A stretch of 64,000 bases of DNA from an uncultured Thiotrichaceae bacterium (GTDB lineage Bacteria; Pseudomonadota; Gammaproteobacteria; Thiotrichales; Thiotrichaceae): NCBI GenBank assembly GCA_902727985.1, contig CACVAY010000103.1, positions 11,086 through 75,085 on the forward strand. The letters run 5' to 3'. Both the position numbers and the translations under genes were made by a program. A model generated the notes under the pieces. The model worked only from the letters and a program-made list of their open reading frames with translations, did no database searches and was not told the DNA's origin. Shown here piece after piece: positions 43,301 through 64,000 of the stretch. The number at the start of each line of letters is the position of its first letter. Positions within the stretch are counted from its first letter, which is position 1.

Positions 43301-43882
43301 TATGAGGTTGATGAAATTAAAGGTAACCGAGAAGTCATGTTGAAGCCGTTAGGGTCGCTATTCACGGATTCTCCGTTGCTATCATCGGCAACCGTTTTAG
43401 GGGGGGGGCAGATTGTCTTGTTGCTGAACGCTCATGAGTTGATTCGCCTCGGCATCCAGGGTGAGACGTTAGTAAATAAGTATATTGTGACCCAAGATGT
43501 TGTTGAACAACCTATTGTGATGGTTATTGATGACTCAATCACGGTTCGCAAGATAACAGAAAGCCTTTTGGTTTCTCTAGATTATCAGGTTTTGACGGCA
43601 AGTGATGGTGTCAATGCTTTGGAGGTTTTGGGTGAACAATTACCCGATTTAATTTTGCTTGATATTGAAATGCCAAGAATGGATGGCTTTGAATTACTAG
43701 AAACGCTACGGGCAACTCAGGAGTGGAGGTATATTCCTGTCATTATGGTTTCTTCGCGGTCGGGCGCAAAACATCGTGGACATGCTGAAAAATTGGGAGC
43801 CAATGGTTTTATCGGAAAACCATGGGAAGCTAAACAGCTGGAAAAATATATTTCTCAATGTTTACAAGAGGGGGTGAGTTAA
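40304..43882 (+). CDS. chpA: ChpA core in the -1 frame: three His-containing Hpt domains, a CheA-type kinase, a CheW-like domain and a C-terminal receiver
   Basis: This frame is open from 40262, and the track starts it at TTG 40499. The three Hpt motifs are RRACHTLKGSGRMVG, KRHMHTIKGGARMSG and ERYLHTIKGGSNMVG. The kinase boxes are N box IEHLIRNSLAHGIE, G1 LRDDGAGINV and G2 GRGVGMDVV. A CheW-like region follows (LLVEVGDELLAIAV...), then a REC domain (IVMVIDDSITVRK...DLILLDIEMPRMDGFELL...IPVIMVSSR...GFIGKP). The first Hpt helices (ELLSIFKDEAHENYEALRHNF) lie upstream of 40499, so the 5' boundary is the frameshift point rather than 40499. Confidence 0.85.
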   Translation: MTAPEQVGVDSGALNPPQDEKEEITPEDSFANELLSIFKDEAHENYEALRHNFKEWKASAYSVAFLMEFRRACHTLKGSGRMVGAVVLGELFWEYENLLNQVHEGKIKVSKELELKLQRLLEYLDEHEDELLYAKEVNTAVSELILDAQKFAQVENKTVDSLPKGKEVVEKLVEEQAPDPVVSIFLEELLELSDVFETSVQALHTDAQDHGALNDAKRHMHTIKGGARMSGFSDLGNLCHVTESVLEEFEERSFIDEELVLACIQNVSDMLFVVSDELAQGKPEPDFEHLLVDLENVFDSIEPQSQPVPEDDFSLEESVTPHVLEAAELESQEGEKGPEQFDGTHQFAAIKAEEHVQEEKLILSSGLKKHEPEADDPMREIFLEELAELLEDFEGVTQTLVNAPDDAESIANAERYLHTIKGGSNMVGLPAIGDLTHAGESLLNQLSNGKVDSNEAVINCLQAVSDQLTMMYESALAGQEPAPAWDLLRELDDLGALEVALNDTAQTIAQEAAVDDAERAGTTAPKEVVVAGIDFTIDQASSDIERLLENVTKQVDIKKYLPSVVEESSSNQAESTQFSSSIRVPAPLISNLITTTNEWGHQNIRLNEQFEDNQLKIKELKRTSTRLREQIRALELETDSMIDAGVDVSGTGNVSGFPMIEGEQHFDPLEMDGYSELHQQSRALAESMDDLFSLTDGLDYGLRQMGETQQIQERTCKTLQEGLISTRMTKVSGLVSRLKRIIRQVSAELGKHVELEVADESAEMDRTILEKITSSIEHLIRNSLAHGIETPKVRRASGKEQVGKIFLNIERDEPEIVIRLRDDGAGINVKKLREKALEKGLITTNEQLRRGEIYQLILRSGVSTAKSISQVAGRGVGMDVVNNEVNALGGSIVIDSEEGKFTEFVLRLPYNLATNQVMLVEVGDELLAIAVAKLKGMQRFSEAEIQKVYDSESKMLTYMGDSYRLNYLAQTLGAGERIPAESGYTKPIIFFDENNQRVAYEVDEIKGNREVMLKPLGSLFTDSPLLSSATVLGGGQIVLLLNAHELIRLGIQGETLVNKYIVTQDVVEQPIVMVIDDSITVRKITESLLVSLDYQVLTASDGVNALEVLGEQLPDLILLDIEMPRMDGFELLETLRATQEWRYIPVIMVSSRSGAKHRGHAEKLGANGFIGKPWEAKQLEKYISQCLQEGVS
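43400..43408 (+). repeat. G9 homopolymer inside the chpA coding sequence
   Basis: GGGGGGGGG encodes Gly-Gly-Gly in ...SSATVLGGGQIVLLL... within the CheW-like domain. It is the longest G/C run I saw in the window. Confidence 0.9.
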
Positions 43883-50355: not shown

Positions 50356-51957
50356 CTATTGAGCAGGTACTGTCTCAAAGACAGGAGGTTTTGATAAATC
50401 CTTATTGGTGCTTTCAGGCTGTATTTTCTTCGCATCGTCATTTTTCTCTTCTTGCACTGCGATAGATTTGAGTGTTTCTTCAATGGCTATCGTCGCATAG
50501 TTACAATCAATAACAGGATTATTATCAATACAAGTCTGTCCAGGTTTCTTCACATAACATTGGGCTTGATTAATGTGCCAGCAATAATAGTAAATCTCAG
50601 TTTCAGAGGGGTGTTCATCTAAGAAAGTGAGAAAGTTGCTGAAATAAATAGAGGCATTGTTGCGTGCTTTCTCTGCTTCCTCTGTTAGGTTTTCTTTCTC
50701 GTATGCTTGAGCAAGTTGTTCAAAGAGAAGTCCAAGGCCATAGAGCAGTTTTCCATGATGTATCTGCTGATCTGGCGAGGCATGTTTCCACAATGTTGTG
50801 CTGGGTTCCATTAAGCCGATAGCATCGCGAATGGTTGCAATGGCAACATCGTCTACGCCGATAACGCTGGTAATTCCGAGGTGGTAGAAAAGACTCATAC
50901 CAATGTAGGCGCAACGTTCTCGACTCAAGTCATCAGGGAGGGCATTGATATGAGTGCATTTTTCATTAAACCTAATGACAGACTCTTTGTCTAAATTACT
51001 CATATACACCCACTGCGCCTGCTTTTGTATTGAGGTGGACTCATGAAAAAGTGACTCAAAGACTGTTTGCTTGGCGTCCTCAGAAAGGCTCAAGGAGCTT
51101 TGTTGATCGTTTGAGGCATGGCCGAGTGCGCTTAGTATGCCTGAAAGCTGGTTTTCAGAAAGCTGGTTTTGTTGCAAGCTGGCATCAATATCAGAAAAAT
51201 ACGTAGTTTTGTGTTCTGAAAGATATTGTGCAGCATCGCGACGGCGATAAGGATTTTTACTTTCAAGTGCCTCTTCGATCACCTGGTAGGTAACATCTGC
51301 TGCGAATAGATCGTTGAAGAAGAATTGACTAATAATATTCTGCTGAAGAAGATCCCTCTGAGTGAATATATTCGTCGTTATTGGAATCGGCTTGAGGGTT
51401 TTGAACCCATTGCCAATGGCGCGGTATTGTAAGCGGAAAACTTCTTGAGGATGGCGACGATAGATCAGTTCGATATTGTCTTCATCCGCATAATCCAGAT
51501 CCGATGAAATGAAATATTCACGAACAGTGTTGCCATCAGGTGCTTGAACGGTAAAAATTCTTTTGTCTAACGGTGTGCTATTAGTGAAATGCCATTCGAT
51601 CTCATTGGTCGGACTAAAAGGATTGCCCTTTGTAGTAAGGCGTTGGTAAAAGTTTTCACGTGAGTATACGCCAACATTATCGGGAACATTTGCGATATAG
51701 CCTTTAGAAACGATTGCTGAATTAGTTGCTGTCTCTCGTTGTACCCACAGTATAGTAACAATGGTGAGCATAGCTGCGATAAAGAGCCAATTGCCGACAT
51801 ATAGCCATTTCATGACGGTATGTGCGTTTTCTGGCGCGGTTTGCCAGCGATCTTTTAAGCGACGTTCCGCAAATAGCATTAAGACAGCTGCAATACCTGC
51901 GGGCCCCCAGCGCATAATGGCATCTGCTACTGGGTTTAAACTGTTTAATGCATCCAT
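50356..51957 (-). CDS. hypothetical membrane-anchored protein (two N-terminal TM helices, large unknown domain)
   Basis: 533 aa. The TM helices are GPAGIAAVLMLFA and WLFIAAMLTIVTILWV. The rest is soluble, with a helical-repeat-like middle and a Cys-containing C-terminal stretch (YYCWHINQAQCYVKKPGQTCIDNNPVIDC). I recognised no catalytic motif. Confidence 0.7.
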   Translation of the reverse strand: MDALNSLNPVADAIMRWGPAGIAAVLMLFAERRLKDRWQTAPENAHTVMKWLYVGNWLFIAAMLTIVTILWVQRETATNSAIVSKGYIANVPDNVGVYSRENFYQRLTTKGNPFSPTNEIEWHFTNSTPLDKRIFTVQAPDGNTVREYFISSDLDYADEDNIELIYRRHPQEVFRLQYRAIGNGFKTLKPIPITTNIFTQRDLLQQNIISQFFFNDLFAADVTYQVIEEALESKNPYRRRDAAQYLSEHKTTYFSDIDASLQQNQLSENQLSGILSALGHASNDQQSSLSLSEDAKQTVFESLFHESTSIQKQAQWVYMSNLDKESVIRFNEKCTHINALPDDLSRERCAYIGMSLFYHLGITSVIGVDDVAIATIRDAIGLMEPSTTLWKHASPDQQIHHGKLLYGLGLLFEQLAQAYEKENLTEEAEKARNNASIYFSNFLTFLDEHPSETEIYYYCWHINQAQCYVKKPGQTCIDNNPVIDCNYATIAIEETLKSIAVQEEKNDDAKKIQPESTNKDLSKPPVFETVPAQ

Positions 51958-52225: not shown

Positions 52226-53983
52226 ATGCCGGGCAGAATTCCGCGTTCCTTTATTGATGATATTTTGGCTCGTGTTGACGTTGTCGAAATCATCAATGCG
52301 CGTGTGCCTTTAAAAAAGAAAGGGCGAGAATATTCTGCCTGTTGTCCGTTTCATAATGAAAAGACACCATCTTTTACGGTCAGTCCTACCAAGCAGTTCT
52401 ATCATTGTTTCGGCTGTGGTGAACATGGAACCGCCATTACCTTTTTGATGGAATATGAACACTTGGATTTTGTTGAGGCGATTGAGTACATCGCTCGTTC
52501 TTTGGGTGTGGAGGTTCCTCGTGAAAAAGGCCGTGCAAAGTCTGCGGAGGAATATAAAAAACAAGGTGGTTTATATGAGTTGATGGAAGAGGTTAATCGT
52601 TTCTATCAATTTCATCTGACGAAACATTCCGACGCGCAACAGTACTTGGCTGAGCGGGGCTTGTCTGAAGATATTATTCAGCGTTTTGGTTTGGGCTATG
52701 TGCCAGATGCTTGGGATAATGTGCTTAAACAGTTTGCGAAATCTTTTTCTGTAAAAGACTTAATGGATGCTGGGCTATTAATCGAGAAAGATTCCGGGGG
52801 GCAATACGACCGCTTTCGTGATCGGATTATGTTCCCTATTCGTGATCGCCGAGGCAGAATTGTCGGTTTCGGTGGACGAGTCATGGGGGATGCTACGCCC
52901 AAATATCTCAACTCTCCAGAAACGTCCATCTTCCATAAAGGAACAGAGCTTTATGGCTTTTATGAAGCACGACAATATACGCGAAAGTTAGAGCGGCTGC
53001 TGGTGGTCGAAGGCTATATGGATGTTATTGCCCTAGCGCAATTTGACATCAGTTATGCTGTTGCAACATTAGGAACGGCAACTACCCAGGAGCATGTGAA
53101 TCTTATTTTTCGCGCGGTATCAGAGGTTGTGTTTTGTTTCGATGGAGATCGAGCCGGACAGGAGGCTGCTTGGCGAGCACTACAGAATGCCTTGGCGGTC
53201 TTGCGAGATGGTAAAGAAATTCGTTTCTTGTTTTTGCCAACAGGAGAAGATCCAGATTCGCAAGTTCGCAAGATTGGTAAAGAGGCATTTGAGGAGTTGC
53301 TTGTTTCTGAAAGTGTCTCGATGACGGATTATTTACTAGAGCATATGTCTGAGAAATACAATATTAGTAGTCGTGAAGGAAAATCACGATTCATGGATGA
53401 GATGTCTACTATGTTGGTTTCTATGCCAGATACGCTGATCCGAGATCAACTTATTGCTGATATTTCCAAGTTGACTTCTATCGAGGAAAACATACTTCGA
53501 AAGCGGCAAGTTAATTCGGAGCAAGTGCCGAAAACTCAAGGGTTTAAACGGATACAAAATCACGCAGTGCAAAAAACACCTGTCCGTTATGCGATTAGTT
53601 TGCTACTGAATCAACCTTCTTTGGTGTCAGAAGCGGGAAATCCGGAACAAATCGCTCGATTTGATCTGGCAGGATCTGATTTTTTAGCTACACTCATTGA
53701 AACAATCGAAGAGAATCCCCACCTTAATACAGCGGCAATGCTGGAACGCTGGCGAGGAACTCGTTATGAGCAGTCTATCGTCCAACTATTACGATGGCAG
53801 CCAGAGTCGACTGATGTTGAAATTTTACGGGAGGAATTTCGTGATTGTTTGCAACGAATTCAATATCAGGCACATGAACAACAACTTGAGTGTCTATTAC
53901 ATAAGGCTCGAACAGAAGGGCTTGATGACATTGAACAAAGAGATTTATTGATGTTATTGAGAGAAAACAGTAAAGAAAACTAA
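52226..53983 (+). CDS. dnaG: DNA primase
   Basis: 585 aa with a zinc ribbon (CCPFHNEKTPSFTVSPTKQFYHCFGCGEHG), an RNAP core (FRDRIMFPIRDRRGRIVGFGGR) and a Toprim block (LLVVEGYMDVIAL...FDGDRAGQEAAWRA). Confidence 0.96.
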   Translation: MPGRIPRSFIDDILARVDVVEIINARVPLKKKGREYSACCPFHNEKTPSFTVSPTKQFYHCFGCGEHGTAITFLMEYEHLDFVEAIEYIARSLGVEVPREKGRAKSAEEYKKQGGLYELMEEVNRFYQFHLTKHSDAQQYLAERGLSEDIIQRFGLGYVPDAWDNVLKQFAKSFSVKDLMDAGLLIEKDSGGQYDRFRDRIMFPIRDRRGRIVGFGGRVMGDATPKYLNSPETSIFHKGTELYGFYEARQYTRKLERLLVVEGYMDVIALAQFDISYAVATLGTATTQEHVNLIFRAVSEVVFCFDGDRAGQEAAWRALQNALAVLRDGKEIRFLFLPTGEDPDSQVRKIGKEAFEELLVSESVSMTDYLLEHMSEKYNISSREGKSRFMDEMSTMLVSMPDTLIRDQLIADISKLTSIEENILRKRQVNSEQVPKTQGFKRIQNHAVQKTPVRYAISLLLNQPSLVSEAGNPEQIARFDLAGSDFLATLIETIEENPHLNTAAMLERWRGTRYEQSIVQLLRWQPESTDVEILREEFRDCLQRIQYQAHEQQLECLLHKARTEGLDDIEQRDLLMLLRENSKEN

Positions 53984-54232
53984 TAGTCGTTATGAGCTTA
54001 GGGGATTGTGTAAAGTTGCATGAGCGAGTAAAAATACACTGGGCGTGTGAAACTACCATGTAGATTATCTCAAATTATTGATATTAATAAGTTAATTGAA
54101 TTTCTTAAAACCTAGCGGGTTGAGTGATTGATTTCTATAAATGATTTTTAACTATAAAATAATTTTATTTTATACAATTACTCTATTTCATATATAATCC
54201 CCCGTTAACTTTTTCAGGACGTATCCTAAGAT

Positions 54233-56107
54233 ATGAGCGACGACAATAAAAAAACTGGAATCCAGTTGCTAATCGCAAAAGGTAAAGAGCAAGGCTATTT
54301 GACCTATGCAGAAGTTAATGATCACTTGCCAGATACGATTGTAGACCCAGAACAAATTGAAGATATCGTTAGTATGATTGGCGATATGGGGATCAATGTT
54401 TACGAAAATGCACCTGAAGAAGCCAGTTCTATTCTGAATGATGATGAAGTTCAGGCGGATGATGAAGTTGAAGAAGCGGCAGCAGTAATCGCGAATGTTG
54501 ATAACTTTGGCCGGACGACTGACCCTGTTCGCATGTATATGCGTGAAATGGGGACGGTTGAGCTACTTACTCGTGAAGGTGAGATTGAAATTGCGATTCG
54601 TATTGAAGAAGGTTTGACAGAAGTACGTCGCGCGCTCGCACATTGTCCTAGTTCTGCAAAAATCCTGCTTGATCGTTTTGAAAAAGTAGAAGCGGAAGAG
54701 ATGCGTCTCACCGATGTAATTTCTGGATTTATTGACCCTAATCAGGTTGAAGAGCCTGTTGTCCCAGCCGCGAACTCTGCGGCAGCTGCAGAATCTGCGA
54801 AAGCTAAAAAAGCAGAGGGCGATGATGAGGATGCTGACGCAGATGACGACGAGGAAGAGGAAGAAGAAGTCGTTGATACTGGAATAGACCCAGAAGAGGC
54901 TAAAGAGAAATTTACCGAACTTCTCGCCTGTTACGAAAAAGTGTGTGCTTCATGTCAGACTGGTGATGAAAAATTAATCGATGAGGCGCGTCAAGAGCAA
55001 GTCGAAAAGATCATGGAGTTCAATATGACTCCAGTCATCATCGAAGAATTTACTTTTAAGTTATCAGAAATCATCAAGTTGATTCGTCTTCATGAGCGTG
55101 CAGCAATGAAGTTTTGTATTAAATTTGGTGGTATGCCTCGTAAAGACTTCATTAGAACCTTTCCGCAAAACGAAACAAACCTCGACTGGTTGGATGATTG
55201 GATTAAAGAAAATCCCAAATACGCGGATAAGTTAGATGCGTACGTTCCAGATGTGCAAGGTATCCAGCAACAGTTGATTAAAATAGTCGAACAAACGCGG
55301 TTGAGCATTGCGCAGATTAAAGACATTAACCGTAATATGTCAGTGAGTGAAGCAAAGGCTCGTCGCGCAAAGAAAGAGATGGTTGAGGCTAACCTGCGTT
55401 TGGTTATCTCGATTGCAAAAAAATATACAAACCGTGGTTTACAGTTCCTAGATCTTATTCAGGAAGGAAATATTGGTTTGATGAAGGCGGTAGATAAATT
55501 TGAATATCGTCGTGGTTATAAGTTTTCGACTTATGCAACATGGTGGATTCGTCAGGCGATAACTCGTTCTATTGCGGATCAAGCGCGGACTATTCGTATC
55601 CCTGTGCATATGATTGAGACGATTAATAAGTTGAATCGCATTTCGCGTAAATTACTACAGGAAAAAGGCCGAGAAGCGACGCCTGAAGAGCTTGCGGTTG
55701 AAATGGATATGCCAGAGAGCAAAATCCGCAAGGTGCTTAAGATTGCTAAAGAACCTATTTCTATGGAAACACCAATTGGTGACGATGAAGATTCTTCATT
55801 AGGTGATTTCATCGAAGATGGCAATGTAATGCTGCCTGTCGATAAGGCTACAACCCTTGATTTATCTGATACCACGCGTGATGCCTTGAGTAGTTTGACT
55901 TCAAGAGAAGCCAAGGTGCTTAGAATGCGTTTCGGTATTGATATGAATACTGATCATACTTTGGAAGAAGTGGGTAAGCAGTTTGATGTAACACGTGAGC
56001 GTATTCGTCAAATTGAAGCTAAAGCGCTGAGAAAATTGCGTCATCCCTCTCGTTCAGATATGCTACGCAGCTTCTTGGAAACAGACGGGGATCCAAGACC
56101 AGAATAA
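54233..56107 (+). CDS. rpoD: RNA polymerase sigma-70
   Basis: 624 aa with region 1.1 ([17 protein letters not shown]), an acidic linker, region 2 ([56 protein letters not shown]) and region 4 ([30 protein letters not shown]). Confidence 0.98.
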
Positions 56108-56124: not shown

Positions 56125-56201
<77 letters not shown>

Positions 56202-56918: not shown

Positions 56919-58688
56919 TTGGAATATCGTAAAAAACTAGAAGAAGAATTTCTAGAAGTTATATCGAATCACTCGGCTGCTATTCCCTTCCCTGTTTTTC
57001 TTGCAGCTCTATTGATGGCTGTATCTGCCTCAATAAGTCCAGATCTTACGTATCTCCCCTTTATATGGTTGCTAGCTGTTTTCTTTGTATTGCTGGTTCG
57101 CTGGTTTTTTTTACGGGATATATTGACCAGTAAATATGTGAGTAAAGAGAATCGAATGACTTTGGTTATTCGTTTAAGTTTGCTTAACGGACTGGTTCAT
57201 GCCTCTGCAATATCCTTTTTTGATCAGTTGGATAGCCCCGAAAGAGCGGTTCAAACATTGTTGTTGTTAGGTGTTTCTGTGGGGGCCGTGGCAACAACAA
57301 GTGGTCATCGTCAGATATTTTCCGCATTTGCTTTTCCCGTGTTTATTTCTTTGTTCCTTTCTTGGGGCTTGTTTGGGGTTGATAAAACAGTTGAGGATAC
57401 ATTTGAAAAACAATTCTATCGATATGCGATTCCTTTTTTCCTTTTACTGTTTTTGATGGTTTTGCTTTCTCTGGCTAAAAACTATAGAAAAATGTTTACG
57501 GAATCTTTCAATATGCGTTCGCAGGAAGAGAAGACGAATGCGAAACTTAAAGGCTTAAATACACAGTTAACACAAGCTTTGGAAGAGACAACAGAAGCCA
57601 ATGCCTCGAAGACCCGTTTTCTAGCAGCAGCCAGCCATGATTTACGACAGCCAATTCATACTCTTACATTTTCTAGTACGGCCTTGTCTCTCCAAAACTT
57701 AGATGATGAATCAAGGCGAATTTCAAGGAATATGGATAAGGCCATTCAGGCTTTATCGAAACAGATGGATTCACTGTTAGATATTTCTAAATTAGATGCA
57801 GGAGTCGTTGAATTAGAGCCAGAAGTTTTCTCGCTGCATGACTTTTTGAATCAGTTGCATATCAATAATCTGCCTCAAATGCAGGATAAGCATGTAGAGT
57901 TTACGCTGGATCTGCCTGTCGTCATGGAAAATTTAGATATTGAGACGGATTATGTTCAGTTTAGCCGTATTGTAAATAACTTATTAAACAATGCACTCAA
58001 ACATACTGAGGAAGGGCAGATTAGTATTGAATTGAAGAAGGTAGGTGGAAAAGCTCTTCTTTCGATTATTGATACAGGAGAGGGCATTTCTGAGGATGAC
58101 CAAAAGAAGATATTTGATGAGTTTTTTCAGGTAAAGAATCCGCAGAGGAGCAGCAAAGAGGGGCTTGGATTGGGATTATCTATTGTTAAGCGCCTAATAA
58201 AGTTACTGGATATGCCGTTTCAATTGCAGTCCGTTCTGGGAGAAGGAACCAAGGTTACTTTAGAAATCCCGCTTATTAATGGCAATAATGAGGGGGGAGA
58301 GGAACAAGAATTCCCCTCATCTGATGCTCGTATCAATATTCTGTGTGTTGATGATGATGAACAAATTCTTGAGGCATTGAGAACCGTTTTTGAAGCAATA
58401 GGTTATGGCGTATATCTTGCGTCAGGGACTGATGCTGCAATGGGGGTGATTGAATATCATACGCCTGACATTTTACTGGCCGACTTGAGGTTAGAAGGTG
58501 AAGACAGTGGTTTTGAAACGGTGCGTTCAGTACGCGAAGTTCTTCCAAATCTCCCCGCCTTTTTGATTACAGGAAATATTGATCCGCAGAGTTTGAGAGC
58601 AGCTCGTGAAGCAGGGGTGGAGATGTTACACAAGCCTCTAGAGCCCAAAATCTTATTACAAAAAATTCAGGTGGCTTTAGGGGCTTGA
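56919..58688 (+). CDS. hybrid sensor histidine kinase (membrane-embedded sensor, HisKA-HATPase-REC)
   Basis: 589 aa with a TTG start. About 6 TM helices come first, then H box FLAAASHDLRQPIHTL, N box NLLNNALKHT, G1 IIDTGEGIS and G2 GLGLGLSIVKRL. The receiver is ILCVDDDEQILEAL...DILLADLRLEGEDSGFE...FLITGN...HKPL. Confidence 0.9.
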   Translation: MEYRKKLEEEFLEVISNHSAAIPFPVFLAALLMAVSASISPDLTYLPFIWLLAVFFVLLVRWFFLRDILTSKYVSKENRMTLVIRLSLLNGLVHASAISFFDQLDSPERAVQTLLLLGVSVGAVATTSGHRQIFSAFAFPVFISLFLSWGLFGVDKTVEDTFEKQFYRYAIPFFLLLFLMVLLSLAKNYRKMFTESFNMRSQEEKTNAKLKGLNTQLTQALEETTEANASKTRFLAAASHDLRQPIHTLTFSSTALSLQNLDDESRRISRNMDKAIQALSKQMDSLLDISKLDAGVVELEPEVFSLHDFLNQLHINNLPQMQDKHVEFTLDLPVVMENLDIETDYVQFSRIVNNLLNNALKHTEEGQISIELKKVGGKALLSIIDTGEGISEDDQKKIFDEFFQVKNPQRSSKEGLGLGLSIVKRLIKLLDMPFQLQSVLGEGTKVTLEIPLINGNNEGGEEQEFPSSDARINILCVDDDEQILEALRTVFEAIGYGVYLASGTDAAMGVIEYHTPDILLADLRLEGEDSGFETVRSVREVLPNLPAFLITGNIDPQSLRAAREAGVEMLHKPLEPKILLQKIQVALGA

Positions 58689-58734
58689 GGCCAAAGACGT
58701 GTGGGTATAGGAATAACAAAAGAGGGGGGTGGGT

Positions 58735-61700
58735 ATGTCGGCACAAATGCAATTTTCAAAGGGTTGGATTGCGGAAGGTCTTGAGCAATGTATTGTTGAA
58801 CAAGAAAGTCATGGGAGCCAAGTTGCTGACTTTGATGTTATTATCATTGGTAGCGGCTACGGTGGGGCGATTGCGGCAGCTGAGCTGGCAGGTGCTAAAG
58901 ATTCTGAAGGAAATACGATTTCAGTTTGCATTCTTGAGCGTGGTAAAGAATTTATTCCTGGGATGTTTCCTGCGGCAGAAGAAGAGTTGCCAGCAGAAGT
59001 GCGTGTAACTGCCCAAGGTAGTAAGCGCTCAATGGGGGCAATGGACGGCCTCTTTGATCTTAGAATGGGGCCTGAGTTAAACGTGGTTTTGGGAAATGGC
59101 CTTGGTGGTGGGTCGTTGATCAATGCGGGGGTGATGGATCGACCGTTAAAAAACGTTTTCCAAACCGGCTGGCCGCGCGCATTTACTGAATCTGCAAAGA
59201 TGGATGCTTATTATGATGAGGCGTCAGAGCTGGTGGGTAGTTCGGTTGGTAATGAACCGAATACCATTCTACGTCATAACAGCCATCAGGCTGAACCGCT
59301 GAAGAAATACCAATCCCTAAAAGAACTCAGTCATCTTAATATTGAAAATTGTTCATTTCGAGCAGCACCAATAACGGTATGTATGCAAGAAGGTGAATTG
59401 AACAGTGCAGATATTCCCTTGCATGCTTGTACCTTATGTGGAGATTGCGCTACTGGCTGTAATCATGGGGCAAAAAACTCATTAGATACGAATTTATTAG
59501 TGACGGCGAAACAACGGGGTGCTCGCATATTTACTGGCGCAAGCGTTATTAAGCTAGATGAGGGTGAGAATGGTGTTTGGGAGCTTGAAGTTGTTCATAC
59601 ACAGTCATCATTGCGTATTAAACAGGGGCACCCTTATAGTCTTCGTGCAAAGAAGGTCATTGTGGCTGCGGGAGCATTGGGCTCTACAGAAATATTGACG
59701 CGTAGTCAGCAGCAAACTCAACTGGAATTTTCAGCAAGGTTGGGAAAAGGCTTCTCTTCTAATGGTGATATGTTGGCGGTGGGGTATAAGCAAAATCAGG
59801 AAGCGAATACGATTGCAGATGAGGCGGTTGAATTCTCCAAGCGTCATGTTGGGCCAACCATTACGGGGATGATCGATCGACGTGACCCTCTGAATAAGAA
59901 GGGATTACTGATTGAAGAAATGTCGGTTCCAGCAGCAATGAAGCGGGTATTTGCTGAACTCTATACGACAGCCAATACCCTGCATAGTATGGAGAACTAT
60001 GATACTGGACGTCATCAACGTGCTTATGTAAAAAATGACCCCGCTAGTATTAACCAGGATGCACTAAAACATACTTCTCTCTATGCAGTGATGGGGCATG
60101 ACGATAATGTTTCACAAGGACGCTTGGAGTTACAGCCCACATCACTTTTCCCCACTGACAATACATCGAAATATCAGGAAGGTGTGATCCAAATACACTG
60201 GCCAGAGCTAGGTAAAGAGCCGTTATTTACCCAGCAGATAAAAACTTTGGCAGAAATGCTGAAAGAATCAGGTGTGGGTGGCAAGGTGATTGCAAACCCT
60301 GGTTGGAAGTTGTTACCCGACTCCATGATGTCTCTAGTTGATAATCAGGTTGGTGCATTAACTACTGTACATCCGCTTGGCGGTTGTTCGATGGCAGACG
60401 ATGTTGAGTCTGGTGTGGTTGATGATTGTGGTCGAGTTTTCCGTCGCATGGCAAAGCAAGATGATCCCTACTATAGCGGCTTATATGTATTAGACGGTGC
60501 GATTATTCCAAGCTCGCTTGGCATTAATCCTGCGTTGACAATTGCGGCGGTGAGTTTGAGGGCTGTTCGGTGCTTGAAAAAAGAGTGGGGCTATAGCGAT
60601 GCTTCGGGGGAAGCTGTCGTTGAGGTGCCGACTCCGCGTCCTATTTGTAACGAGCCACCTTTGCCTAAAGATAATCAGCCTACTGAAATTGAAGTGGTTG
60701 AACGTCTATCTGGTGATGCAAGAATTACGGATGATAAAGGAGAAAGCCATGATGTAGTCATTGAAGTGACCTTATCTTTTGCATCGAAAAAGGTTCTCGA
60801 TTTATGTCGAATGAGTGCTGAGTCTGATCATGAGGCTGAGGCTGGACGTTTACGAACCAAGGATAACAAAGACACTCATGAGTTAGAACGAAATCAAATA
60901 CGTGTATACCTAAAGAAGGATTGGGAAACATTACAGAGAACCATTTATAGCCCAGAACATATGAATAAGTTTGGCTCTAATTTGGCATATCTTGAAAAAG
61001 AAATGGATAAGGCTGCGACCTTTATTGGTGATGTTTCTGGAACCTTGGATGTATTTACCCGTGATAAGAGCTATTTCGTGCCCAGAGTGGCGCGTGTGCT
61101 TGGTTATTCATGGCTATTCAATCGTGGTCTGCGAGATACGTGGCAGCAAATGTTTCCCAAGCATTATGAAAAGAAACCTGGCCATGGTGAGAGAAAAGAG
61201 GGGGTATTAAAACGCATTGTAAAGCCAATCTCTAATTCCTTGAAACTCGCTTCTCGTGCAGGCGAAAAACGCATGTTGGAATATGCGCTGAACATAGACG
61301 ATGTTCGTGTGGGTAAAAACTTTCGTTCATTAAAGGGAACCTCGATTAAGGGTTTTAAAGTCTTTACCTATGCACGTCGTGCCAATCCATGGTGGCAGTT
61401 GGCAGAAATCTATTTAACAGATTTCCAGGGCCTAGAAAAGCACCCTACTGAAAAGAAAACAATTTTGAGGCTCGATACGCGTTATCTCGCAAGAATTAAT
61501 GTGCCTCTGCTGAGATTGTCTCGGCAAAGTGATCAATACAAGGCATTGATGGATGTGATGTCTTTGGGAATGTATGTGGTGCGACTACTCGTCAGTATCC
61601 ATTTGTGGAGTTTCCGAAGTCCTGATACGCCTGCGCCTCATGAACCAAAACGACTGCCGCAAAAAATCACTGGTCTGCCAGAGCCTGAAGTCAAGATGCT

Positions 61701-64000
61701 AACGGTGGGGGAGATCCCTAAAAATTCGGTGGATAATTTAACAAAGGGTATGGACGTTAAGATCTGCCTCACGCGTTATCCTCGCAAAAATAGCAATAAA
61801 AATCCGGTTGTGATGCTTCATGGTTATAGCGCCAGTGGAACATCATTTACGCACAACACCATCAATAAAACCTTGGTTGAATCATTTTGGGAAGATGATC
61901 GTGATGTGTGGATCCTGGATATGCGTACCAGCGCGGGTATGCCAACAGCGAGGTATCCATGGCGTTTTGAGGATGTAGCACAAAACGATATTCCCGTTGC
62001 CTTTAATTATATCTATGAGATGTGCAACAACAAGCCGGTTGATGCTTTGGTGCATTGCATGGGGTCAGTGATGTTCAGTATGTCAGTATTGATACCGGAG
62101 AGGATTAATTTTGACAATGCATATTTCAACAAGCTGCCTGCTTTTGATAAAAATATGGATAAGAGCCGTTTTTATGAAAAGCGTGTGAATGCTGTTATTT
62201 ACTCTCAAGTGACACCGATGGTGGTGTTTAGCCCAGGTAATCGTTTTCGGGCACTTTTAACCTCCTATTTGAAAGAATTGATTCCCCAGGATTATCACTT
62301 CAAACCTGTCAAAGAGCCTGGTTTGCTGGATCAAATACTTGACCGAGTGCTCTATACGCTTCCTTATCCAAGAAGCGAGTTTGATAGAGAAAACCCACCT
62401 TACAAGCCATGGAAGCGGGTAACTTTTGCGCGGACTCGTCATCGTATGGATGCGCTTTATGGCAGAGATTTTAATTTGCAGCAAATTGATGATGAGGTCA
62501 TGGAGAATATTGATGACCTATTTGGGCCGCTGAGTATTGATACGGTCTCTCAAGCCATTCACTTTAATCGGCAAAATATCATTACCAATCCTTATGGCAA
62601 GAACGAATACGTGTCTTTTGAAAATATGCAAAACTGGACGTTTCCCACCTGTGGTTTTCATGGGGGTTCGAATGGTTTAGCAGATATTGCAACGGCTGAG
62701 CGTACCAAACACTTTTTTGAATCCGCTGGACATGATTACCACATTATTCAGCACCCGGGTAAATATGGGCATCAGGATTCCTTGATAGGCCGAGATGCCC
62801 ATAAGGATATTTTTAAGCCCATTTTAAGATTCCTTCGTGAGCTTGAAGATAAAAAAGCAAAGACGGGTGACGAGCGTGTTGAAAAAGTGAAAGTGGTCAC
62901 AGAGGCGGGGGATGTTGATATCGAGATGCCCTGGTTTGGTCCTGTTTGTTATCCTGCTGACCAGAGCAGTAAAGCGAGAGTGCTGGTAGGCATTGACCCA
63001 ATACTCACCACAGCATATCCCCCTGTGTTTATTCCGATAACACGTACGGAAACGGGCGGACGAGCAATAATGGATGCGGGGGGCTTAAGTTTGCAGCGGG
63101 TTATTAGTGAGTACACAACCGTCTTTTTGAACCATTATCGAGATTCTAACTTTGAAAATTTTCAGCGTGAGCATCAATGCTTTGTTGAAAATTACCCTGA
63201 GTATTTATTACCACATAGCACTGAAATTGATGAGGTATTGGTCGTATTGCCCTATTTACGTTTCCCTGAAACGCCAGCGAAAACTGGCTCAGTTGATATT
63301 AAAGCTGCACAGGGGATGTTAAAAAAGGCGATATGTGACTTTGTAAACTCTGAGGGGGATATCAGTCTGGCTTGCATTCAACCGTATGGAGATAAGGATG
63401 AACAATCAGATACGATCATGGTAGCGTTTGGTAGCTGTCAATATACACATGGAATGCTGGATGAGGAGTTGTCATTCAAGAGTTATCATAAGCTTTCCAA
63501 TCGTCTGGCAGATGAAAAAGAGAATAAGCCTGATTTACTTTTGTTAATGGGGGATCAGGTGTATACCGACCCAACTGCGGGGTTATTTGATCCGCGTTCG
63601 AATGCTGATCGGTTTATTCAGCCCTATAAGCGTTGGTTGAGCAATAGGTTTGTACGCGATGTATGCCGTCAACTTCCCATGTATAGCATGCTGGACGATC
63701 ATGAAATCGTCGATAATTGGGAGCCAATTGCAAAGAAGGCTCAAGAGGTCTACCCAGAATACGCTGCTGATTTGAGAGAGAAAGCTGAGTATGGTGTGCG
63801 TGCTTATCTCTGTTTTCAGCGAGGAAAATTTGACCAGGATATTCAAGAAAAGTCACGAAATGATCTTCCAAAACTCTGGTATAGCTTTCAACGTAAGGGT
63901 TTTGACTTCTTCATGATGGATACTCGCACGGATCGTGGCATTAGAACGGCAACGGCAGAAGATGGGCTAATTTCTCAAGCACAATGTGATGATCTGAGAG
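58735..64000 (+). CDS. giant multidomain protein (more than 1755 aa, 3' end outside the window): GMC/cholesterol-oxidase-like flavoprotein, unknown middle region, alpha/beta-hydrolase and PhoD-like metallophosphodiesterase
   Basis: This ORF is absent from the ORF track because it has no stop before the window end. My codon-by-codon translation from ATG 58735 (SD-like GAGGGGGG at 58722-58729) found no stop.
- GMC domain: FDVIIIGSGYGGAIAAAELA (58849 onward), CTLCGDCATGCNHGAKNSLDTNLL, VAAGALGSTEIL, and HPLGGCSMADD (60370 onward) with LYVLDGAIIPSSLGINP.
- Alpha/beta-hydrolase: NPVVMLHGYSASGTSF (61801), VHCMGSVMF (62050) and KYGHQDSLIG (62761).
- PhoD-like domain: VAFGSCQY (63421), LLLMGDQVYTD (63538) and MLDDHEIVDNWEP (63688). 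Confidence 0.85.
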   Translation, partial: MSAQMQFSKGWIAEGLEQCIVEQESHGSQVADFDVIIIGSGYGGAIAAAELAGAKDSEGNTISVCILERGKEFIPGMFPAAEEELPAEVRVTAQGSKRSMGAMDGLFDLRMGPELNVVLGNGLGGGSLINAGVMDRPLKNVFQTGWPRAFTESAKMDAYYDEASELVGSSVGNEPNTILRHNSHQAEPLKKYQSLKELSHLNIENCSFRAAPITVCMQEGELNSADIPLHACTLCGDCATGCNHGAKNSLDTNLLVTAKQRGARIFTGASVIKLDEGENGVWELEVVHTQSSLRIKQGHPYSLRAKKVIVAAGALGSTEILTRSQQQTQLEFSARLGKGFSSNGDMLAVGYKQNQEANTIADEAVEFSKRHVGPTITGMIDRRDPLNKKGLLIEEMSVPAAMKRVFAELYTTANTLHSMENYDTGRHQRAYVKNDPASINQDALKHTSLYAVMGHDDNVSQGRLELQPTSLFPTDNTSKYQEGVIQIHWPELGKEPLFTQQIKTLAEMLKESGVGGKVIANPGWKLLPDSMMSLVDNQVGALTTVHPLGGCSMADDVESGVVDDCGRVFRRMAKQDDPYYSGLYVLDGAIIPSSLGINPALTIAAVSLRAVRCLKKEWGYSDASGEAVVEVPTPRPICNEPPLPKDNQPTEIEVVERLSGDARITDDKGESHDVVIEVTLSFASKKVLDLCRMSAESDHEAEAGRLRTKDNKDTHELERNQIRVYLKKDWETLQRTIYSPEHMNKFGSNLAYLEKEMDKAATFIGDVSGTLDVFTRDKSYFVPRVARVLGYSWLFNRGLRDTWQQMFPKHYEKKPGHGERKEGVLKRIVKPISNSLKLASRAGEKRMLEYALNIDDVRVGKNFRSLKGTSIKGFKVFTYARRANPWWQLAEIYLTDFQGLEKHPTEKKTILRLDTRYLARINVPLLRLSRQSDQYKALMDVMSLGMYVVRLLVSIHLWSFRSPDTPAPHEPKRLPQKITGLPEPEVKMLTVGEIPKNSVDNLTKGMDVKICLTRYPRKNSNKNPVVMLHGYSASGTSFTHNTINKTLVESFWEDDRDVWILDMRTSAGMPTARYPWRFEDVAQNDIPVAFNYIYEMCNNKPVDALVHCMGSVMFSMSVLIPERINFDNAYFNKLPAFDKNMDKSRFYEKRVNAVIYSQVTPMVVFSPGNRFRALLTSYLKELIPQDYHFKPVKEPGLLDQILDRVLYTLPYPRSEFDRENPPYKPWKRVTFARTRHRMDALYGRDFNLQQIDDEVMENIDDLFGPLSIDTVSQAIHFNRQNIITNPYGKNEYVSFENMQNWTFPTCGFHGGSNGLADIATAERTKHFFESAGHDYHIIQHPGKYGHQDSLIGRDAHKDIFKPILRFLRELEDKKAKTGDERVEKVKVVTEAGDVDIEMPWFGPVCYPADQSSKARVLVGIDPILTTAYPPVFIPITRTETGGRAIMDAGGLSLQRVISEYTTVFLNHYRDSNFENFQREHQCFVENYPEYLLPHSTEIDEVLVVLPYLRFPETPAKTGSVDIKAAQGMLKKAICDFVNSEGDISLACIQPYGDKDEQSDTIMVAFGSCQYTHGMLDEELSFKSYHKLSNRLADEKENKPDLLLLMGDQVYTDPTAGLFDPRSNADRFIQPYKRWLSNRFVRDVCRQLPMYSMLDDHEIVDNWEPIAKKAQEVYPEYAADLREKAEYGVRAYLCFQRGKFDQDIQEKSRNDLPKLWYSFQRKGFDFFMMDTRTDRGIRTATAEDGLISQAQCDDLR

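What the first reader, a model, noticed from the sequence alone, without database searches (positions are those of the whole stretch)
58735..64000. Giant open-ended ORF fusing a cholesterol-oxidase-like GMC flavoenzyme, an alpha/beta-hydrolase and a PhoD-like phosphodiesterase
Seen: there is a single uninterrupted reading frame of at least 1755 codons. The ORF track does not list it because it has no stop in the window. Its parts are:
1. About 58.82-60.58 kb: a GMC oxidoreductase with the FAD motif GSGYGG, the Cys-rich CTLCGDCATGCNHGAKNSL block and the C-terminal active-site region HPLGGCSMADD.
2. About 60.6-61.7 kb: some 370 aa with no motif I recognise, ending in a hydrophobic helix (LMDVMSLGMYVVRLLVSIHLW).
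3. About 61.73-62.83 kb: an alpha/beta-hydrolase (VVMLHGYSASG, an elbow at VHCMGS, and His in YGHQDSLIG).
4. From about 62.9 kb to the edge: a PhoD-like metallophosphatase (FGSCQY, GDQVYTD, DDHEIVDNWE).

There is no signal peptide.

Established: each domain family is a well-known stand-alone enzyme, acting respectively in alcohol or sterol oxidation, ester hydrolysis or acyl transfer, and phosphodiester hydrolysis.

Inference: three catalytic activities chained in one polypeptide suggest sequential processing of one complex substrate. A phospho- and acyl-decorated lipid, polyol or sterol-like molecule would fit. I cannot judge novelty without a database search, but I do not recognise this three-way fusion as a characterised enzyme.
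Basis: partly seen in the sequence, partly recalled or inferred. Interest (0 to 1): 0.72.

Follow-up and report, generated by a model that had tools for sequence, protein, structure and literature searches.

The report
Kinase-linked giant three-enzyme lipid-type protein
The giant gene is real and encodes a 1925-residue protein joining three intact enzymes and an orphan domain; it belongs to a widespread but unstudied bacterial family whose gene almost always sits next to a membrane sensor kinase, which suggests an undescribed lipid-signalling module.

Summary
Window 58735-64000 (+) is open for 1755 codons (chance about 1e-48), and the same protein on other contigs is 1925 aa.

It has four folded modules:
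- a cholesterol-oxidase-like GMC flavoenzyme with an invariant CxxCGDCxxGC block;
- a 380-aa domain "X" with a confident model, no PDB fold match and no occurrence outside this architecture;
- an acid-lipase-like alpha/beta hydrolase whose nucleophile is Cys in 73 of 73 members;
- a PhoD phosphodiesterase with all metal ligands kept.

The fusion is not unique. There are more than 100 full-length homologs (37-48% identity) in Gamma-, Beta- and Alphaproteobacteria. Lineages with PhoD as a separate adjacent gene, or with another metallophosphoesterase in its place, support joint function. I found no paper on it.

In 59 of 71 loci a polytopic hybrid histidine kinase is adjacent (50 directly upstream, often overlapping), usually with a LuxR-type regulator. 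Several loci without it carry another signalling protein there.

My best reading is a cytoplasmic lipid-processing enzyme that makes or removes the ligand sensed by that kinase. The substrate is unknown and the signalling role is inferred.

The parts
56919..58688 (+). Hybrid sensor histidine kinase (589 aa). It has an N-terminal block of about 5-6 TM helices with very short loops (aa 18-190), followed by HisKA, HATPase_c and a receiver domain. It is the conserved partner gene.
   Evidence: Pfam; hydropathy. The core is nearest to the NCBIfam NahK/ErcS family, at 262 bits against a cut-off of 400. It lies directly upstream on the same strand in 50 of 71 full-length loci. The kinase stop to enzyme start distance has a median of about 0 bp.
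58721..58729 (+). Shine-Dalgarno sequence AGAGGGGGG ahead of the giant ORF. The gap to the kinase stop codon is only 46 nt, which suggests co-transcription.
   Evidence: Sequence read; no convincing promoter or terminator in the gap.
58735..64000 (+). Giant ORF, residues 1-1755 of a 1925-aa protein. The last 170 residues and the stop codon lie beyond the window edge.
58825..60579 (+). GMC flavoenzyme module (aa 31-615), cholesterol-oxidase-like. FAD motif GSGYGG is at 58849-58866. The catalytic His546 is at 60370-60372 and Asn598 at 60526-60528.
   Evidence: Pfam. PDB profile E=1e-41 to cholesterol oxidase, against 1e-13 for the next GMC type. His and Asn align to ChoA H447 and N485.
59428..59460 (+). 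Invariant Cys block C232-x2-C235-G-D-C238-x3-C242 with ferredoxin-like spacing. It is a candidate Fe-S site.
   Evidence: Four invariant Cys. Present in 71 of 74 family members over 1000 aa and also in shorter GMC-only fragments. It resembles CxxCGxCxxxCPxGA of HdrC and Fe-hydrogenase, but only at E=0.17. There is a precedent for a 3Fe-4S cluster in a GMC Cys-rich loop (PMC6719666).
60574..61722 (+). Domain X (aa 614-996; folded core about aa 651-959). It is an alpha+beta domain with long beta-hairpins and long helices, and it is specific to this family.
   Evidence: AlphaFold2 model pLDDT 88.2, pTM 0.80. No PDB fold match: best E=0.08, TM below 0.2. No Pfam or NCBIfam hit. Only 356 representative clusters out of 1.84 billion contain it; in the long listed proteins it sits at about aa 600-1000.
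61687..62868 (+). Alpha/beta-hydrolase module (aa 985-1378), acid-lipase-like with a helical cap. The predicted triad is Cys1108 (62056-62058), Asp1317 (62683-62685) and His1346 (62770-62772). The oxyanion motif is HGYS.
   Evidence: Model pLDDT 88.7, pTM 0.90. Foldseek: lysosomal acid lipase 6v7n and gastric lipases 1k8q/1hlg at E=4e-13, TM 0.6-0.68. Cys at the elbow in 73 of 73 members. Residue conservation.
62917..63414 (+). Poorly conserved region (aa 1395-1560) between the hydrolase and the PhoD catalytic core. It probably corresponds to the N-terminal beta-sandwich domain of PhoD.
   Evidence: Low conservation; no Pfam hit. The PhoD 2yeq alignment begins only after that enzyme's N-terminal domain. 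The assignment is an inference.
63415..64000 (+). PhoD-type metallophosphodiesterase catalytic core (aa 1561 onward, continuing to aa 1925 outside the window). In-window ligands are Cys1568 (63436-63438), Asp1607, Tyr1610, Asp1654/Asp1655 (63694-63699), Asp1660 and Asn1661.
   Evidence: Pfam PhoD 43.9 bits against a cut-off of 27. Profile E=2.6e-20 to B. subtilis PhoD 2yeq, with ligands aligned. The ligand list comes from PMC4223295.

Best explanation
Claim. The gene encodes a cytoplasmic multi-enzyme of about 215 kDa, probably working at the inner face of the membrane, that acts on a hydrophobic substrate carrying a hydroxyl, an acyl (ester or amide) and a phosphodiester group.

The four modules:
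- A cholesterol-oxidase-like FAD module oxidises an alcohol to a carbonyl. If its four-Cys block binds an Fe-S cluster, it passes electrons to an acceptor rather than to O2.
- An acid-lipase-like module uses a Cys nucleophile. It therefore forms a thioester acyl-enzyme, which favours acyl transfer or deacylation.
- A PhoD-type module cleaves a phosphodiester or phosphomonoester, as the PhoD-family phospholipase D does.
- The family-specific domain X links the modules. It may hold or pass the lipid between them.

Proposed role. The enzyme is the input side of a two-component pathway. It makes or destroys a membrane-soluble compound that is sensed by the multi-helix transmembrane domain of the co-transcribed hybrid histidine kinase. 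The kinase then signals through a phosphorelay to a LuxR-type regulator.

What is shown: the architecture, the intact catalytic residues, the Cys nucleophile, the exclusivity of domain X, the distribution, and the gene linkage to signalling proteins.

What is inferred: the lipid nature of the substrate, the order of reactions, the Fe-S cluster, the cytoplasmic location, and above all the direction of the link between enzyme and kinase.
For: - Real gene, real fusion.
- Catalytic competence of all modules.
- Lipid-type relatives: cholesterol oxidase at E=1e-41; lysosomal acid lipase and gastric lipase by Foldseek at E=4e-13; the PhoD family includes the S. chromofuscus phospholipase D (PMC4223295).
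- The modules stay together when unfused, and another metallophosphoesterase can replace PhoD.
- Linkage to signalling: the hybrid kinase is adjacent in 59 of 71 loci and directly upstream on the same strand in 50. A LuxR-type regulator lies within 8 kb in 44 of those 59.
- The median gap between kinase stop and enzyme start is about 0 bp.
- Unbiased clustering of all neighbouring ORFs finds no other conserved neighbour.
- The kinase sensor part is purely transmembrane. The same TM module appears with an added HD-GYP output in L062, at E=2e-19.
- Several loci without the kinase carry another signal transducer next to the gene. These are a 7TM-GGDEF-EAL protein in Hylemonella and a cyclase-STAND protein in four rhizobial loci, and a REC-ANTAR regulator in Thiomicrorhabdus. 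Swapping of output type around a constant enzyme is what one expects if the enzyme acts upstream of the sensors.
Against: - No substrate, product or phenotype is known, and nothing here tests chemistry.
- Gene adjacency cannot tell 'enzyme feeds the sensor' from 'sensor regulates the enzyme gene'.
- About 15% of full-length loci (11 of 71) lack the canonical kinase within 8 kb, and a few (L013, L043) show no signalling neighbour at all.
- PhoD-less forms in Acidobacteriota, Gaiellaceae and Myxococcales show no kinase link.
- No Hpt protein, which a hybrid kinase needs, is conserved in the neighbourhood.
- PhoD enzymes are normally exported and use Ca2+, which is scarce in the cytoplasm. The absence of a signal peptide is read from sequence only.
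- The Cys block matches ferredoxin motifs only at a non-significant level. Its equivalence to the Fe-S loop of FAD-glucose dehydrogenase was not verified.
Confidence: 0.4

Rival explanations
1. Regulated catabolic or remodelling enzyme. The kinase senses a membrane lipid or membrane perturbation, or the substrate itself. The LuxR regulator then switches on the kinase-enzyme operon, and the giant enzyme simply degrades or remodels that lipid, for example to scavenge phosphate, carbon or acyl chains. The enzyme is the output of the pathway, not its input.
For: Two-component systems commonly sit next to the genes they control. The regulator is a DNA-binding LuxR/NarL type nearest to MctR, NarL and ErdR. 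The NahK/ErcS-ErdR type of system is linked with alcohol-oxidation regulation in Pseudomonas (my own knowledge). PhoD enzymes classically serve phosphate acquisition (PMC4223295).
Against: The enzyme is more tightly linked to the kinase (overlapping genes) than the kinase is to its regulator, whose position and strand vary. Where the kinase is missing, the neighbours are second-messenger enzymes (GGDEF-EAL, cyclase-STAND, HD-GYP) that do not directly control transcription of a neighbouring gene. No transporter or further catabolic genes are conserved nearby.
Confidence: 0.3
2. Accessory sensor protein ('trigger enzyme'). The giant protein binds the kinase directly and controls its autophosphorylation according to whether its own substrate or a redox signal (FAD or Fe-S) is present. 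Soluble H-NOX and NosP proteins control neighbouring kinases or c-di-GMP enzymes in this way.
For: The kinase core falls in the NCBIfam family named for kinases found next to NosP (NF041832). The partner-swapping pattern (kinase, GGDEF-EAL, HD-GYP) is the one known for H-NOX and NosP partners (the comparison rests on my own knowledge). Overlapping genes suggest matched stoichiometry.
Against: The kinase already has a large transmembrane sensor module of its own. Keeping three complete catalytic centres intact is more than a binding sensor would need. No interaction evidence exists.
Confidence: 0.15
3. Exported membrane-attacking toxin or effector. It would combine cholesterol oxidase, lipase and phospholipase-D-like activities against host or competitor membranes.
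For: Each activity is known in secreted membrane-damaging enzymes. Classical cholesterol oxidases and PhoD enzymes are exported (my own knowledge; PMC4223295).
Against: There is no signal peptide or twin-arginine motif in the conserved N-terminus, and the FAD fold begins at about residue 35. No secretion-system, immunity or toxin-related genes are conserved nearby. The hosts are mostly free-living soil, freshwater and marine bacteria. There is no hit in the defence library.
Confidence: 0.05

Closest known systems
Class I (GMC-type) cholesterol oxidase, e.g. Streptomyces ChoA (PDB 1B4V) and Brevibacterium (1COY)
   Same: It is the best-matching characterised family for aa 31-615 (profile E=1e-41). 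The FAD-binding fold is shared, and the catalytic His447 and Asn485 equivalents are conserved.
   Different: It scores 160 bits against the 850-bit cut-off of the NCBIfam cholesterol-oxidase model. The substrate-domain segment that holds the isomerase base Glu361 does not align. It has a four-Cys block where ChoA has none. It has no export signal, and it is fused to three further domains.
Acid lipase family: human lysosomal acid lipase/cholesteryl-ester hydrolase (6V7N) and gastric lipases (1HLG, 1K8Q)
   Same: These are the nearest folds to aa 985-1400 (Foldseek E=4e-13, TM 0.6-0.68), with an alpha/beta core plus a large helical cap. They also give the best PDB sequence-profile hit for this module.
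   Different: The nucleophile is Cys rather than Ser in all 73 members. Sequence identity is only about 14-15%. The Pfam acid-lipase N-terminal signature is not significant.
PhoD phosphodiesterase/alkaline phosphatase D (B. subtilis PhoD, 2YEQ) and the PhoD-family phospholipase D of Streptomyces chromofuscus
   Same: There is a Pfam PhoD match. The Fe3+ ligands (Cys, Asp, Tyr, His) and the Ca2+ ligands are conserved and align residue for residue (PMC4223295).
   Different: There is no Tat signal and the location is presumably cytoplasmic. Asn271 is replaced by Asp. The N-terminal domain has diverged. The module is the C-terminal part of a giant protein, or a separate adjacent gene in some lineages.
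Enzyme-plus-sensor pairs of lipid-type bacterial signals (CqsA/CqsS, RpfF/RpfC, LuxM/LuxN)
   Same: An enzyme gene lies next to a hybrid histidine kinase whose sensor is a bundle of transmembrane helices without a periplasmic domain. The comparison itself rests on my own knowledge.
   Different: The enzymes are unrelated in fold and chemistry. No signal molecule is known here, and the direction of the relationship is unproven.
FAD-dependent dehydrogenase complexes with a 3Fe-4S cluster in the GMC subunit (Burkholderia cepacia FAD-glucose dehydrogenase, 6A2U)
   Same: It is a GMC catalytic subunit with a Cys-rich loop that binds an Fe-S cluster and passes electrons from FAD to a partner (PMC6719666). 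The family here has four invariant Cys in one loop of the GMC N-domain.
   Different: The Cys spacing differs (CC-x4-C-x3-C against C-x2-C-x2-C-x3-C). Equivalence of the loops was not verified. No cytochrome or 'hitchhiker' subunit genes are nearby.

Membership tests
Class I GMC cholesterol oxidase | GMC fold with an N-terminal FAD-binding GxGxxG motif | tested here: met
   Pfam GMC_oxred_N and GMC_oxred_C score above their cut-offs. GSGYGG is invariant.
Class I GMC cholesterol oxidase | Catalytic His447 and Asn485 (Streptomyces numbering) | tested here: met
   They align to His546 and Asn598, both invariant.
Class I GMC cholesterol oxidase | Glu361, the base for the delta-5 to delta-4 isomerisation | tested here: inconclusive
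   ChoA residues of about 326-370 do not align with the family profile.
Class I GMC cholesterol oxidase | Score above the curated equivalog cut-off (NCBIfam NF058674) | tested here: not met
   160 bits against a cut-off of 850.
Class I GMC cholesterol oxidase | Sterol 3-beta-hydroxyl oxidation activity | not testable with these tools
   This needs an enzyme assay.
Acid lipase family (gastric lipase, lysosomal acid lipase) | Alpha/beta-hydrolase core with a helical cap, nearest in fold to this family | tested here: met
   The top four Foldseek hits are 6v7n, 1k8q and 1hlg, at E about 4e-13 and TM 0.58-0.68.
Acid lipase family (gastric lipase, lysosomal acid lipase) | Serine nucleophile in G-x-S-x-G | tested here: not met
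   The elbow is H-C-[MIVYL]-G in 73 of 73 members, with no Ser.
Acid lipase family (gastric lipase, lysosomal acid lipase) | Asp and His completing the triad | tested here: inconclusive
   Asp1317 (at least 90% conserved) and His1346 (invariant) sit after the expected strands of the model.
PhoD phosphodiesterase family | Pfam PhoD match above the gathering score | tested here: met
   43.9 bits against 27, even though the window truncates the domain. The stand-alone orthologue in L074 scores 88 bits.
PhoD phosphodiesterase family | Metal ligands Cys180, Asp207, Tyr, Asp265, Asp266, Asn271, Asn272, Asp436 and His | tested here: met
   They align to C1568, D1607, Y1610, D1654, D1655, D1660 (Asn to Asp), N1661, D1826 and H1828. 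The ligand list comes from PMC4223295.
PhoD phosphodiesterase family | Extracytoplasmic location through a Tat signal peptide | tested here: not met
   No signal or twin-arginine motif appears at the N-terminus of the protein or of the family consensus. The PhoD module is internal and C-terminal.
PHA synthase (PhaC), considered because of the Cys 'lipase box' | Cys nucleophile in a lipase-box elbow | tested here: met
PHA synthase (PhaC), considered because of the Cys 'lipase box' | Sequence or fold closest to PhaC | tested here: not met
   PhaC (5xav, 6k3c) matches only at E=0.09 in the profile search and is absent from the top 50 Foldseek hits. There is no PhaC Pfam or NCBIfam hit.
Fe-S-containing GMC dehydrogenases (FAD-glucose dehydrogenase type) | Cys-rich loop that binds a 3Fe-4S cluster | tested here: inconclusive
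   There are four invariant Cys with ferredoxin-like spacing. The match to ferredoxin motifs is not significant. No alignment to the 6A2U loop was obtained.
Fe-S-containing GMC dehydrogenases (FAD-glucose dehydrogenase type) | Cytochrome c and small 'hitchhiker' partner subunits encoded alongside | tested here: not met
   The only conserved neighbours are the kinase and the regulator.
Signal-enzyme plus sensor-kinase pairs (CqsA/CqsS type) | Enzyme gene adjacent to a polytopic hybrid histidine kinase | tested here: met
Signal-enzyme plus sensor-kinase pairs (CqsA/CqsS type) | The enzyme product is the kinase ligand | not testable with these tools
   This needs genetics and chemistry.

The most novel reading that the evidence does not exclude
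This is a previously unrecognised signalling system, widespread in Proteobacteria. A giant three-enzyme protein converts a membrane lipid into (or removes) a small hydrophobic messenger by acyl transfer through a Cys thioester, head-group cleavage by PhoD and oxidation by an Fe-S flavoenzyme. A dedicated all-transmembrane sensor module reads that messenger and can be wired to a phosphorelay, to c-di-GMP or to cyclic-nucleotide outputs. Domain X would be a new lipid-handling fold.
Probability: 0.25. Interest if true: 0.85.

Novelty: new variant of a known kind. Interest (0 to 1): 0.62.

Why it matters
Each catalytic domain belongs to a textbook family, but the assembly does not correspond to any characterised enzyme that I could find. 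It carries features that current automatic names hide:
- a universal Cys nucleophile in a lipase fold;
- a ferredoxin-like Cys block in a cholesterol-oxidase-like flavoenzyme;
- a confident domain with no known fold;
- a presumably cytoplasmic PhoD.

The tight, repeatedly re-wired linkage to membrane-embedded signalling proteins gives a concrete and testable hypothesis for an orphan two-component system present in dozens of cultivable genera, including Massilia, Ramlibacter, Roseateles, Variovorax, Ensifer, Rhizobium and Simiduia. If the enzyme makes or removes the kinase's ligand, this would add a new class of lipid-derived bacterial signal. If it does not, it is still a new multifunctional lipid-processing enzyme, and it shows how misleading the label 'cholesterol oxidase' is for these genes.

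Tried and rejected
- **Assembly or frameshift artefact: rejected.** The identical 1925-aa protein is found on three contigs, there is an 85%-identical homolog, and more than 100 full-length homologs exist.
- **True cholesterol oxidase orthologue: rejected.** It scores 160 bits against an 850-bit cut-off.
- **PHA-synthase-like domain** (suggested by the Cys lipase box): rejected on sequence and fold.
- **Transmembrane anchor at aa 937-957: rejected.** Only one hydropathy window passes, the stretch holds conserved Arg and His, and it forms the terminal helix of a soluble domain.
- **Anti-phage defence system:** no PADLOC hit for the giant protein; the kinase and regulator give only generic domain hits.
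- **Other conserved neighbours** (transporters, Hpt, cytochromes, secretion genes): none found by all-against-all clustering of 1125 neighbouring ORFs. An ABC-ATPase cluster seen in 11 loci lies at scattered positions and looks like chance.
- **Fold match for domain X:** none in the PDB. The viral library was not tried because it was judged irrelevant.
- **Literature:** five searches on the architecture and its context found nothing relevant. One hit (PMC13083937) used 'GMC' only as a strain label. A Ramlibacter phosphatase survey (PMC5768637) does not mention the fusion.
- **Alignment of the Cys block to the Fe-S loop of 6A2U:** not obtained, because a short-segment search returned only ferredoxin-type motifs at non-significant E-values.
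- **Triad geometry:** could not be measured because model coordinates are not exposed.
Full report
**1.

Window 58735-64000 (+) is a single open frame of 1755 codons. The other five frames of the same stretch contain 69-189 stops. From base composition, the chance of no stop is about 1e-48. An in-frame stop lies 8 codons upstream, and a strong ribosome-binding site (AGAGGGGGG) precedes the ATG.

A database protein 100% identical over all 1755 residues (P0001, from an uncultured Thiotrichaceae MAG) is 1925 aa long. It is encoded on three contigs from independent samples. The window therefore lacks only the last 170 residues, and the fusion is not an assembly artefact.

**2. Anatomy**

Pfam confirms GMC_oxred_N and GMC_oxred_C (aa 113-324 and 499-606) and PhoD (aa 1567-1739, cut by the window edge). 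The alpha/beta-hydrolase matches are weak. In an alignment of 114 full-length homologs, the catalytic motifs of all modules are more than 90% conserved.

*GMC module.*
- A family profile matches class-I cholesterol oxidases at E=1e-41, against 1e-13 for the next GMC type.
- ChoA His447 and Asn485 align to the invariant His546 and Asn598.
- The protein scores only 160 bits against the 850-bit cut-off of the cholesterol-oxidase equivalog model.
- The segment holding the isomerase base Glu361 does not align.
- I therefore call it cholesterol-oxidase-like, not a cholesterol oxidase.
- Where ChoA has no cysteines, this family has an invariant C-x2-C-G-D-C-x3-C block. It is present in 71 of 74 members over 1000 aa.
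- On its own the block most resembles ferredoxin [4Fe-4S] motifs, but not significantly (E=0.17).
- A Cys-rich loop in another GMC enzyme binds a 3Fe-4S cluster that relays electrons from FAD (PMC6719666). An Fe-S site is thus a reasonable but untested idea.

*Domain X (aa 614-996).*
- It has no Pfam or NCBIfam match.
- It gives a confident model (pLDDT 88, pTM 0.80).
- That model has no significant match in the PDB (best E=0.08, TM below 0.2).
- A search of 1.84 billion representative proteins finds it in only 356. In the long proteins among the 150 listed it sits at about residues 600-1000. Those proteins are either 1.9-2.0 kaa (with PhoD) or 1.3-1.4 kaa (without PhoD); shorter entries look like fragments.
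- It therefore appears exclusive to this architecture.
It carries conserved Arg950 and His956.

*Alpha/beta-hydrolase module (aa 985-1378).*
- The model is confident (pLDDT 88.7, pTM 0.90).
- Its nearest folds are lysosomal acid lipase/cholesteryl-ester hydrolase and the gastric lipases (E=4e-13, TM 0.6-0.68).
- PHA synthases, which I considered because of the Cys 'lipase box', are not close.
- The elbow residue is Cys in all 73 family members examined (H-C-[MIVYL]-G), and never Ser.
- Asp1317 and His1346 are conserved at the expected positions.
- I could not measure the triad geometry.

*PhoD module.*
- A family profile matches B. subtilis PhoD at E=2.6e-20.
- Every metal ligand shown by mutagenesis to be needed (PMC4223295) aligns to an invariant or nearly invariant residue. 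The single conservative change is Asn271 to Asp.

All three catalytic centres therefore look functional. There is no signal peptide or twin-arginine motif, and the FAD fold starts at about residue 35.

**3. Distribution and variants**

- More than 100 full-length homologs at 37-48% identity share the architecture.
- A scan of one genome per species finds 595 relatives.
- The best 80 include full-length genes in these groups:
  - Gammaproteobacteria: Simiduia, Arenicella, Cellvibrionaceae, Halieaceae, Nevskiales, Hahella.
  - Betaproteobacteria: Massilia, Ramlibacter, Roseateles, Variovorax, Rubrivivax and others.
  - Alphaproteobacteria: Ensifer, Rhizobium leguminosarum.
  - A Polyangiales MAG.
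- Source names are only automatic: 'cholesterol oxidase', 'alpha/beta fold hydrolase', 'alkaline phosphatase D family protein'.
- Five literature searches found no study of the architecture.
- The modules remain neighbours when they are not fused:
  - PhoD is a separate gene upstream of GMC-X-hydrolase in Thiomicrorhabdus and Thiosulfatimonas.
  - PhoD is a separate ORF downstream in L014, L035 and L043. For these three, sequencing frameshifts cannot be excluded.
  - In a myxobacterial locus a calcineurin-like metallophosphoesterase gene takes that position.
- This is independent evidence that an oxidoreductase, a Cys-hydrolase and a phosphoesterase work together.

**4.

- *The kinase.* The gene directly upstream in the window (56919-58688) encodes a hybrid histidine kinase. 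Its N-terminal 200 residues are 5-6 transmembrane helices with very short loops and no periplasmic domain. Its core is nearest to the NahK/ErcS family.
- *The regulator.* On the longer contig, a LuxR/NarL-type response regulator follows the giant gene.
- *How often they are linked.* I counted 71 full-length loci with enough upstream sequence:
  - 50 have this kinase directly upstream on the same strand;
  - 9 more have it within 1.5 kb in another arrangement;
  - 44 of these 59 also have the regulator within 8 kb.
- *Spacing.* The kinase stop and the enzyme start are a median of about 0 bp apart.
- *Nothing else is conserved.* Clustering all 1125 neighbouring ORFs finds no other conserved neighbour.
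- *The sensor module travels.* A profile of the kinase's transmembrane module recognises all the rearranged kinases. It also recognises a kinase with an added HD-GYP output in L062 (E=2e-19).
- *Loci without the kinase often hold another signal transducer:*
  - a 7TM-GGDEF-EAL protein directly upstream in Hylemonella;
  - a divergent adenylate/guanylate-cyclase-STAND protein in all four rhizobial loci;
  - a REC-ANTAR regulator in Thiomicrorhabdus.

**5. Interpretation**

What is shown: a conserved multi-enzyme with intact centres, lipid-type relatives, and a strong, re-wired genetic link to membrane signalling proteins.

What I infer: the enzyme acts on a hydrophobic substrate bearing acyl, phosphodiester and hydroxyl groups at the cytoplasmic face of the membrane. 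I further infer that it produces or removes the compound sensed by the kinase's transmembrane module (confidence about 0.4).

Two observations favour 'enzyme upstream of the sensor' over 'enzyme as regulated target' (about 0.3) or 'enzyme as protein-binding accessory sensor' (about 0.15):
- The enzyme-kinase link is tighter than the kinase-regulator link.
- The output type is swapped around a constant enzyme.

Adjacency cannot decide this. An exported toxin is unlikely (about 0.05), and a defence role finds no support.

Weak points are the unknown substrate, the missing Hpt partner, a Ca2+-type PhoD site in the cytoplasm, and the roughly 15% of loci that lack the canonical kinase.

**6. Verdict**

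The finding is real, and the domain reading is essentially right. The fusion is common rather than unique, but it appears uncharacterised. It has several unannotated peculiarities: the Cys nucleophile, the Cys block, orphan domain X and the kinase coupling. I rate it a new variant of known kinds, of moderate to high interest.

Noticed in passing
window 56125-56201 (+): A tRNA-Met (anticodon CAT) lies just after rpoD, in the roughly 800-bp gap before the kinase gene. It is the only Rfam hit in the whole window.
   Followed up: yes
window 52226-56107 (+): dnaG (primase, 52226-53983) and rpoD (sigma-70, 54233-56107) lie directly upstream of the module. This is the classical macromolecular-synthesis gene pair, so the kinase-enzyme unit sits in core chromosome rather than on an obvious island.
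   Followed up: partly
L017, L018, L019, L023 (Ensifer and Rhizobium), about 3.5-7.8 kb, minus strand: In all four rhizobial loci the usual kinase is replaced by a divergently transcribed protein of about 1345 aa with an adenylate/guanylate-cyclase domain and an AAA_16 (STAND) domain, directly upstream of the giant gene.
   Followed up: partly
L077 5518-7974 (+) (Hylemonella MAG): A 7TMR-DISM_7TM + GGDEF + EAL protein ends 20 nt before the giant gene, in the position where the kinase normally sits. Its 7TM module is not homologous to the kinase's TM module.
   Followed up: partly
L084 6943-7893 (+) (Myxococcales MAG): A calcineurin-like metallophosphoesterase gene (Pfam Metallophos) lies directly upstream of a PhoD-less GMC-X-hydrolase gene. 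It looks like a replacement of the PhoD function by a different phosphoesterase.
   Followed up: partly
L074 7320-13402 and L081 6601-11797 (Thiomicrorhabdus, Thiosulfatimonas): The gene order is permuted: a stand-alone PhoD gene (563-588 aa) comes first, then GMC-(shortened X)-hydrolase (1141-1157 aa). In L074 a REC-ANTAR response regulator follows.
   Followed up: partly
window 56919-57560 (kinase aa 1-215) and homologs: The kinase's transmembrane sensor block has no Pfam family (best E=0.008, to irrelevant models). It behaves as a conserved module of its own and is reused with an HD-GYP output in L062. It may be an undescribed membrane sensor domain.
   Followed up: partly
window 40499-43882 (+): A 1127-aa CheA-like protein with multiple Hpt domains, HATPase_c, CheW and a receiver domain. 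It is one possible source of the Hpt activity that the hybrid kinase needs, but it lies 13 kb away and no link was tested.
   Followed up: no
window 44351-46585 (-), 50356-51957 (-) and 29749-33609 (-): Large ORFs of 744, 533 and 1286 aa. The first has only a bacterial Ig domain, the second has no Pfam match, and the third was not scanned.
   Followed up: no
L006 15765-16706 (+): In one metagenomic locus an outer-membrane channel of the MetA/Phenol_MetA_deg family, which takes up hydrophobic compounds, sits between the giant gene and the regulator. This fits a hydrophobic substrate but is seen only once.
   Followed up: no
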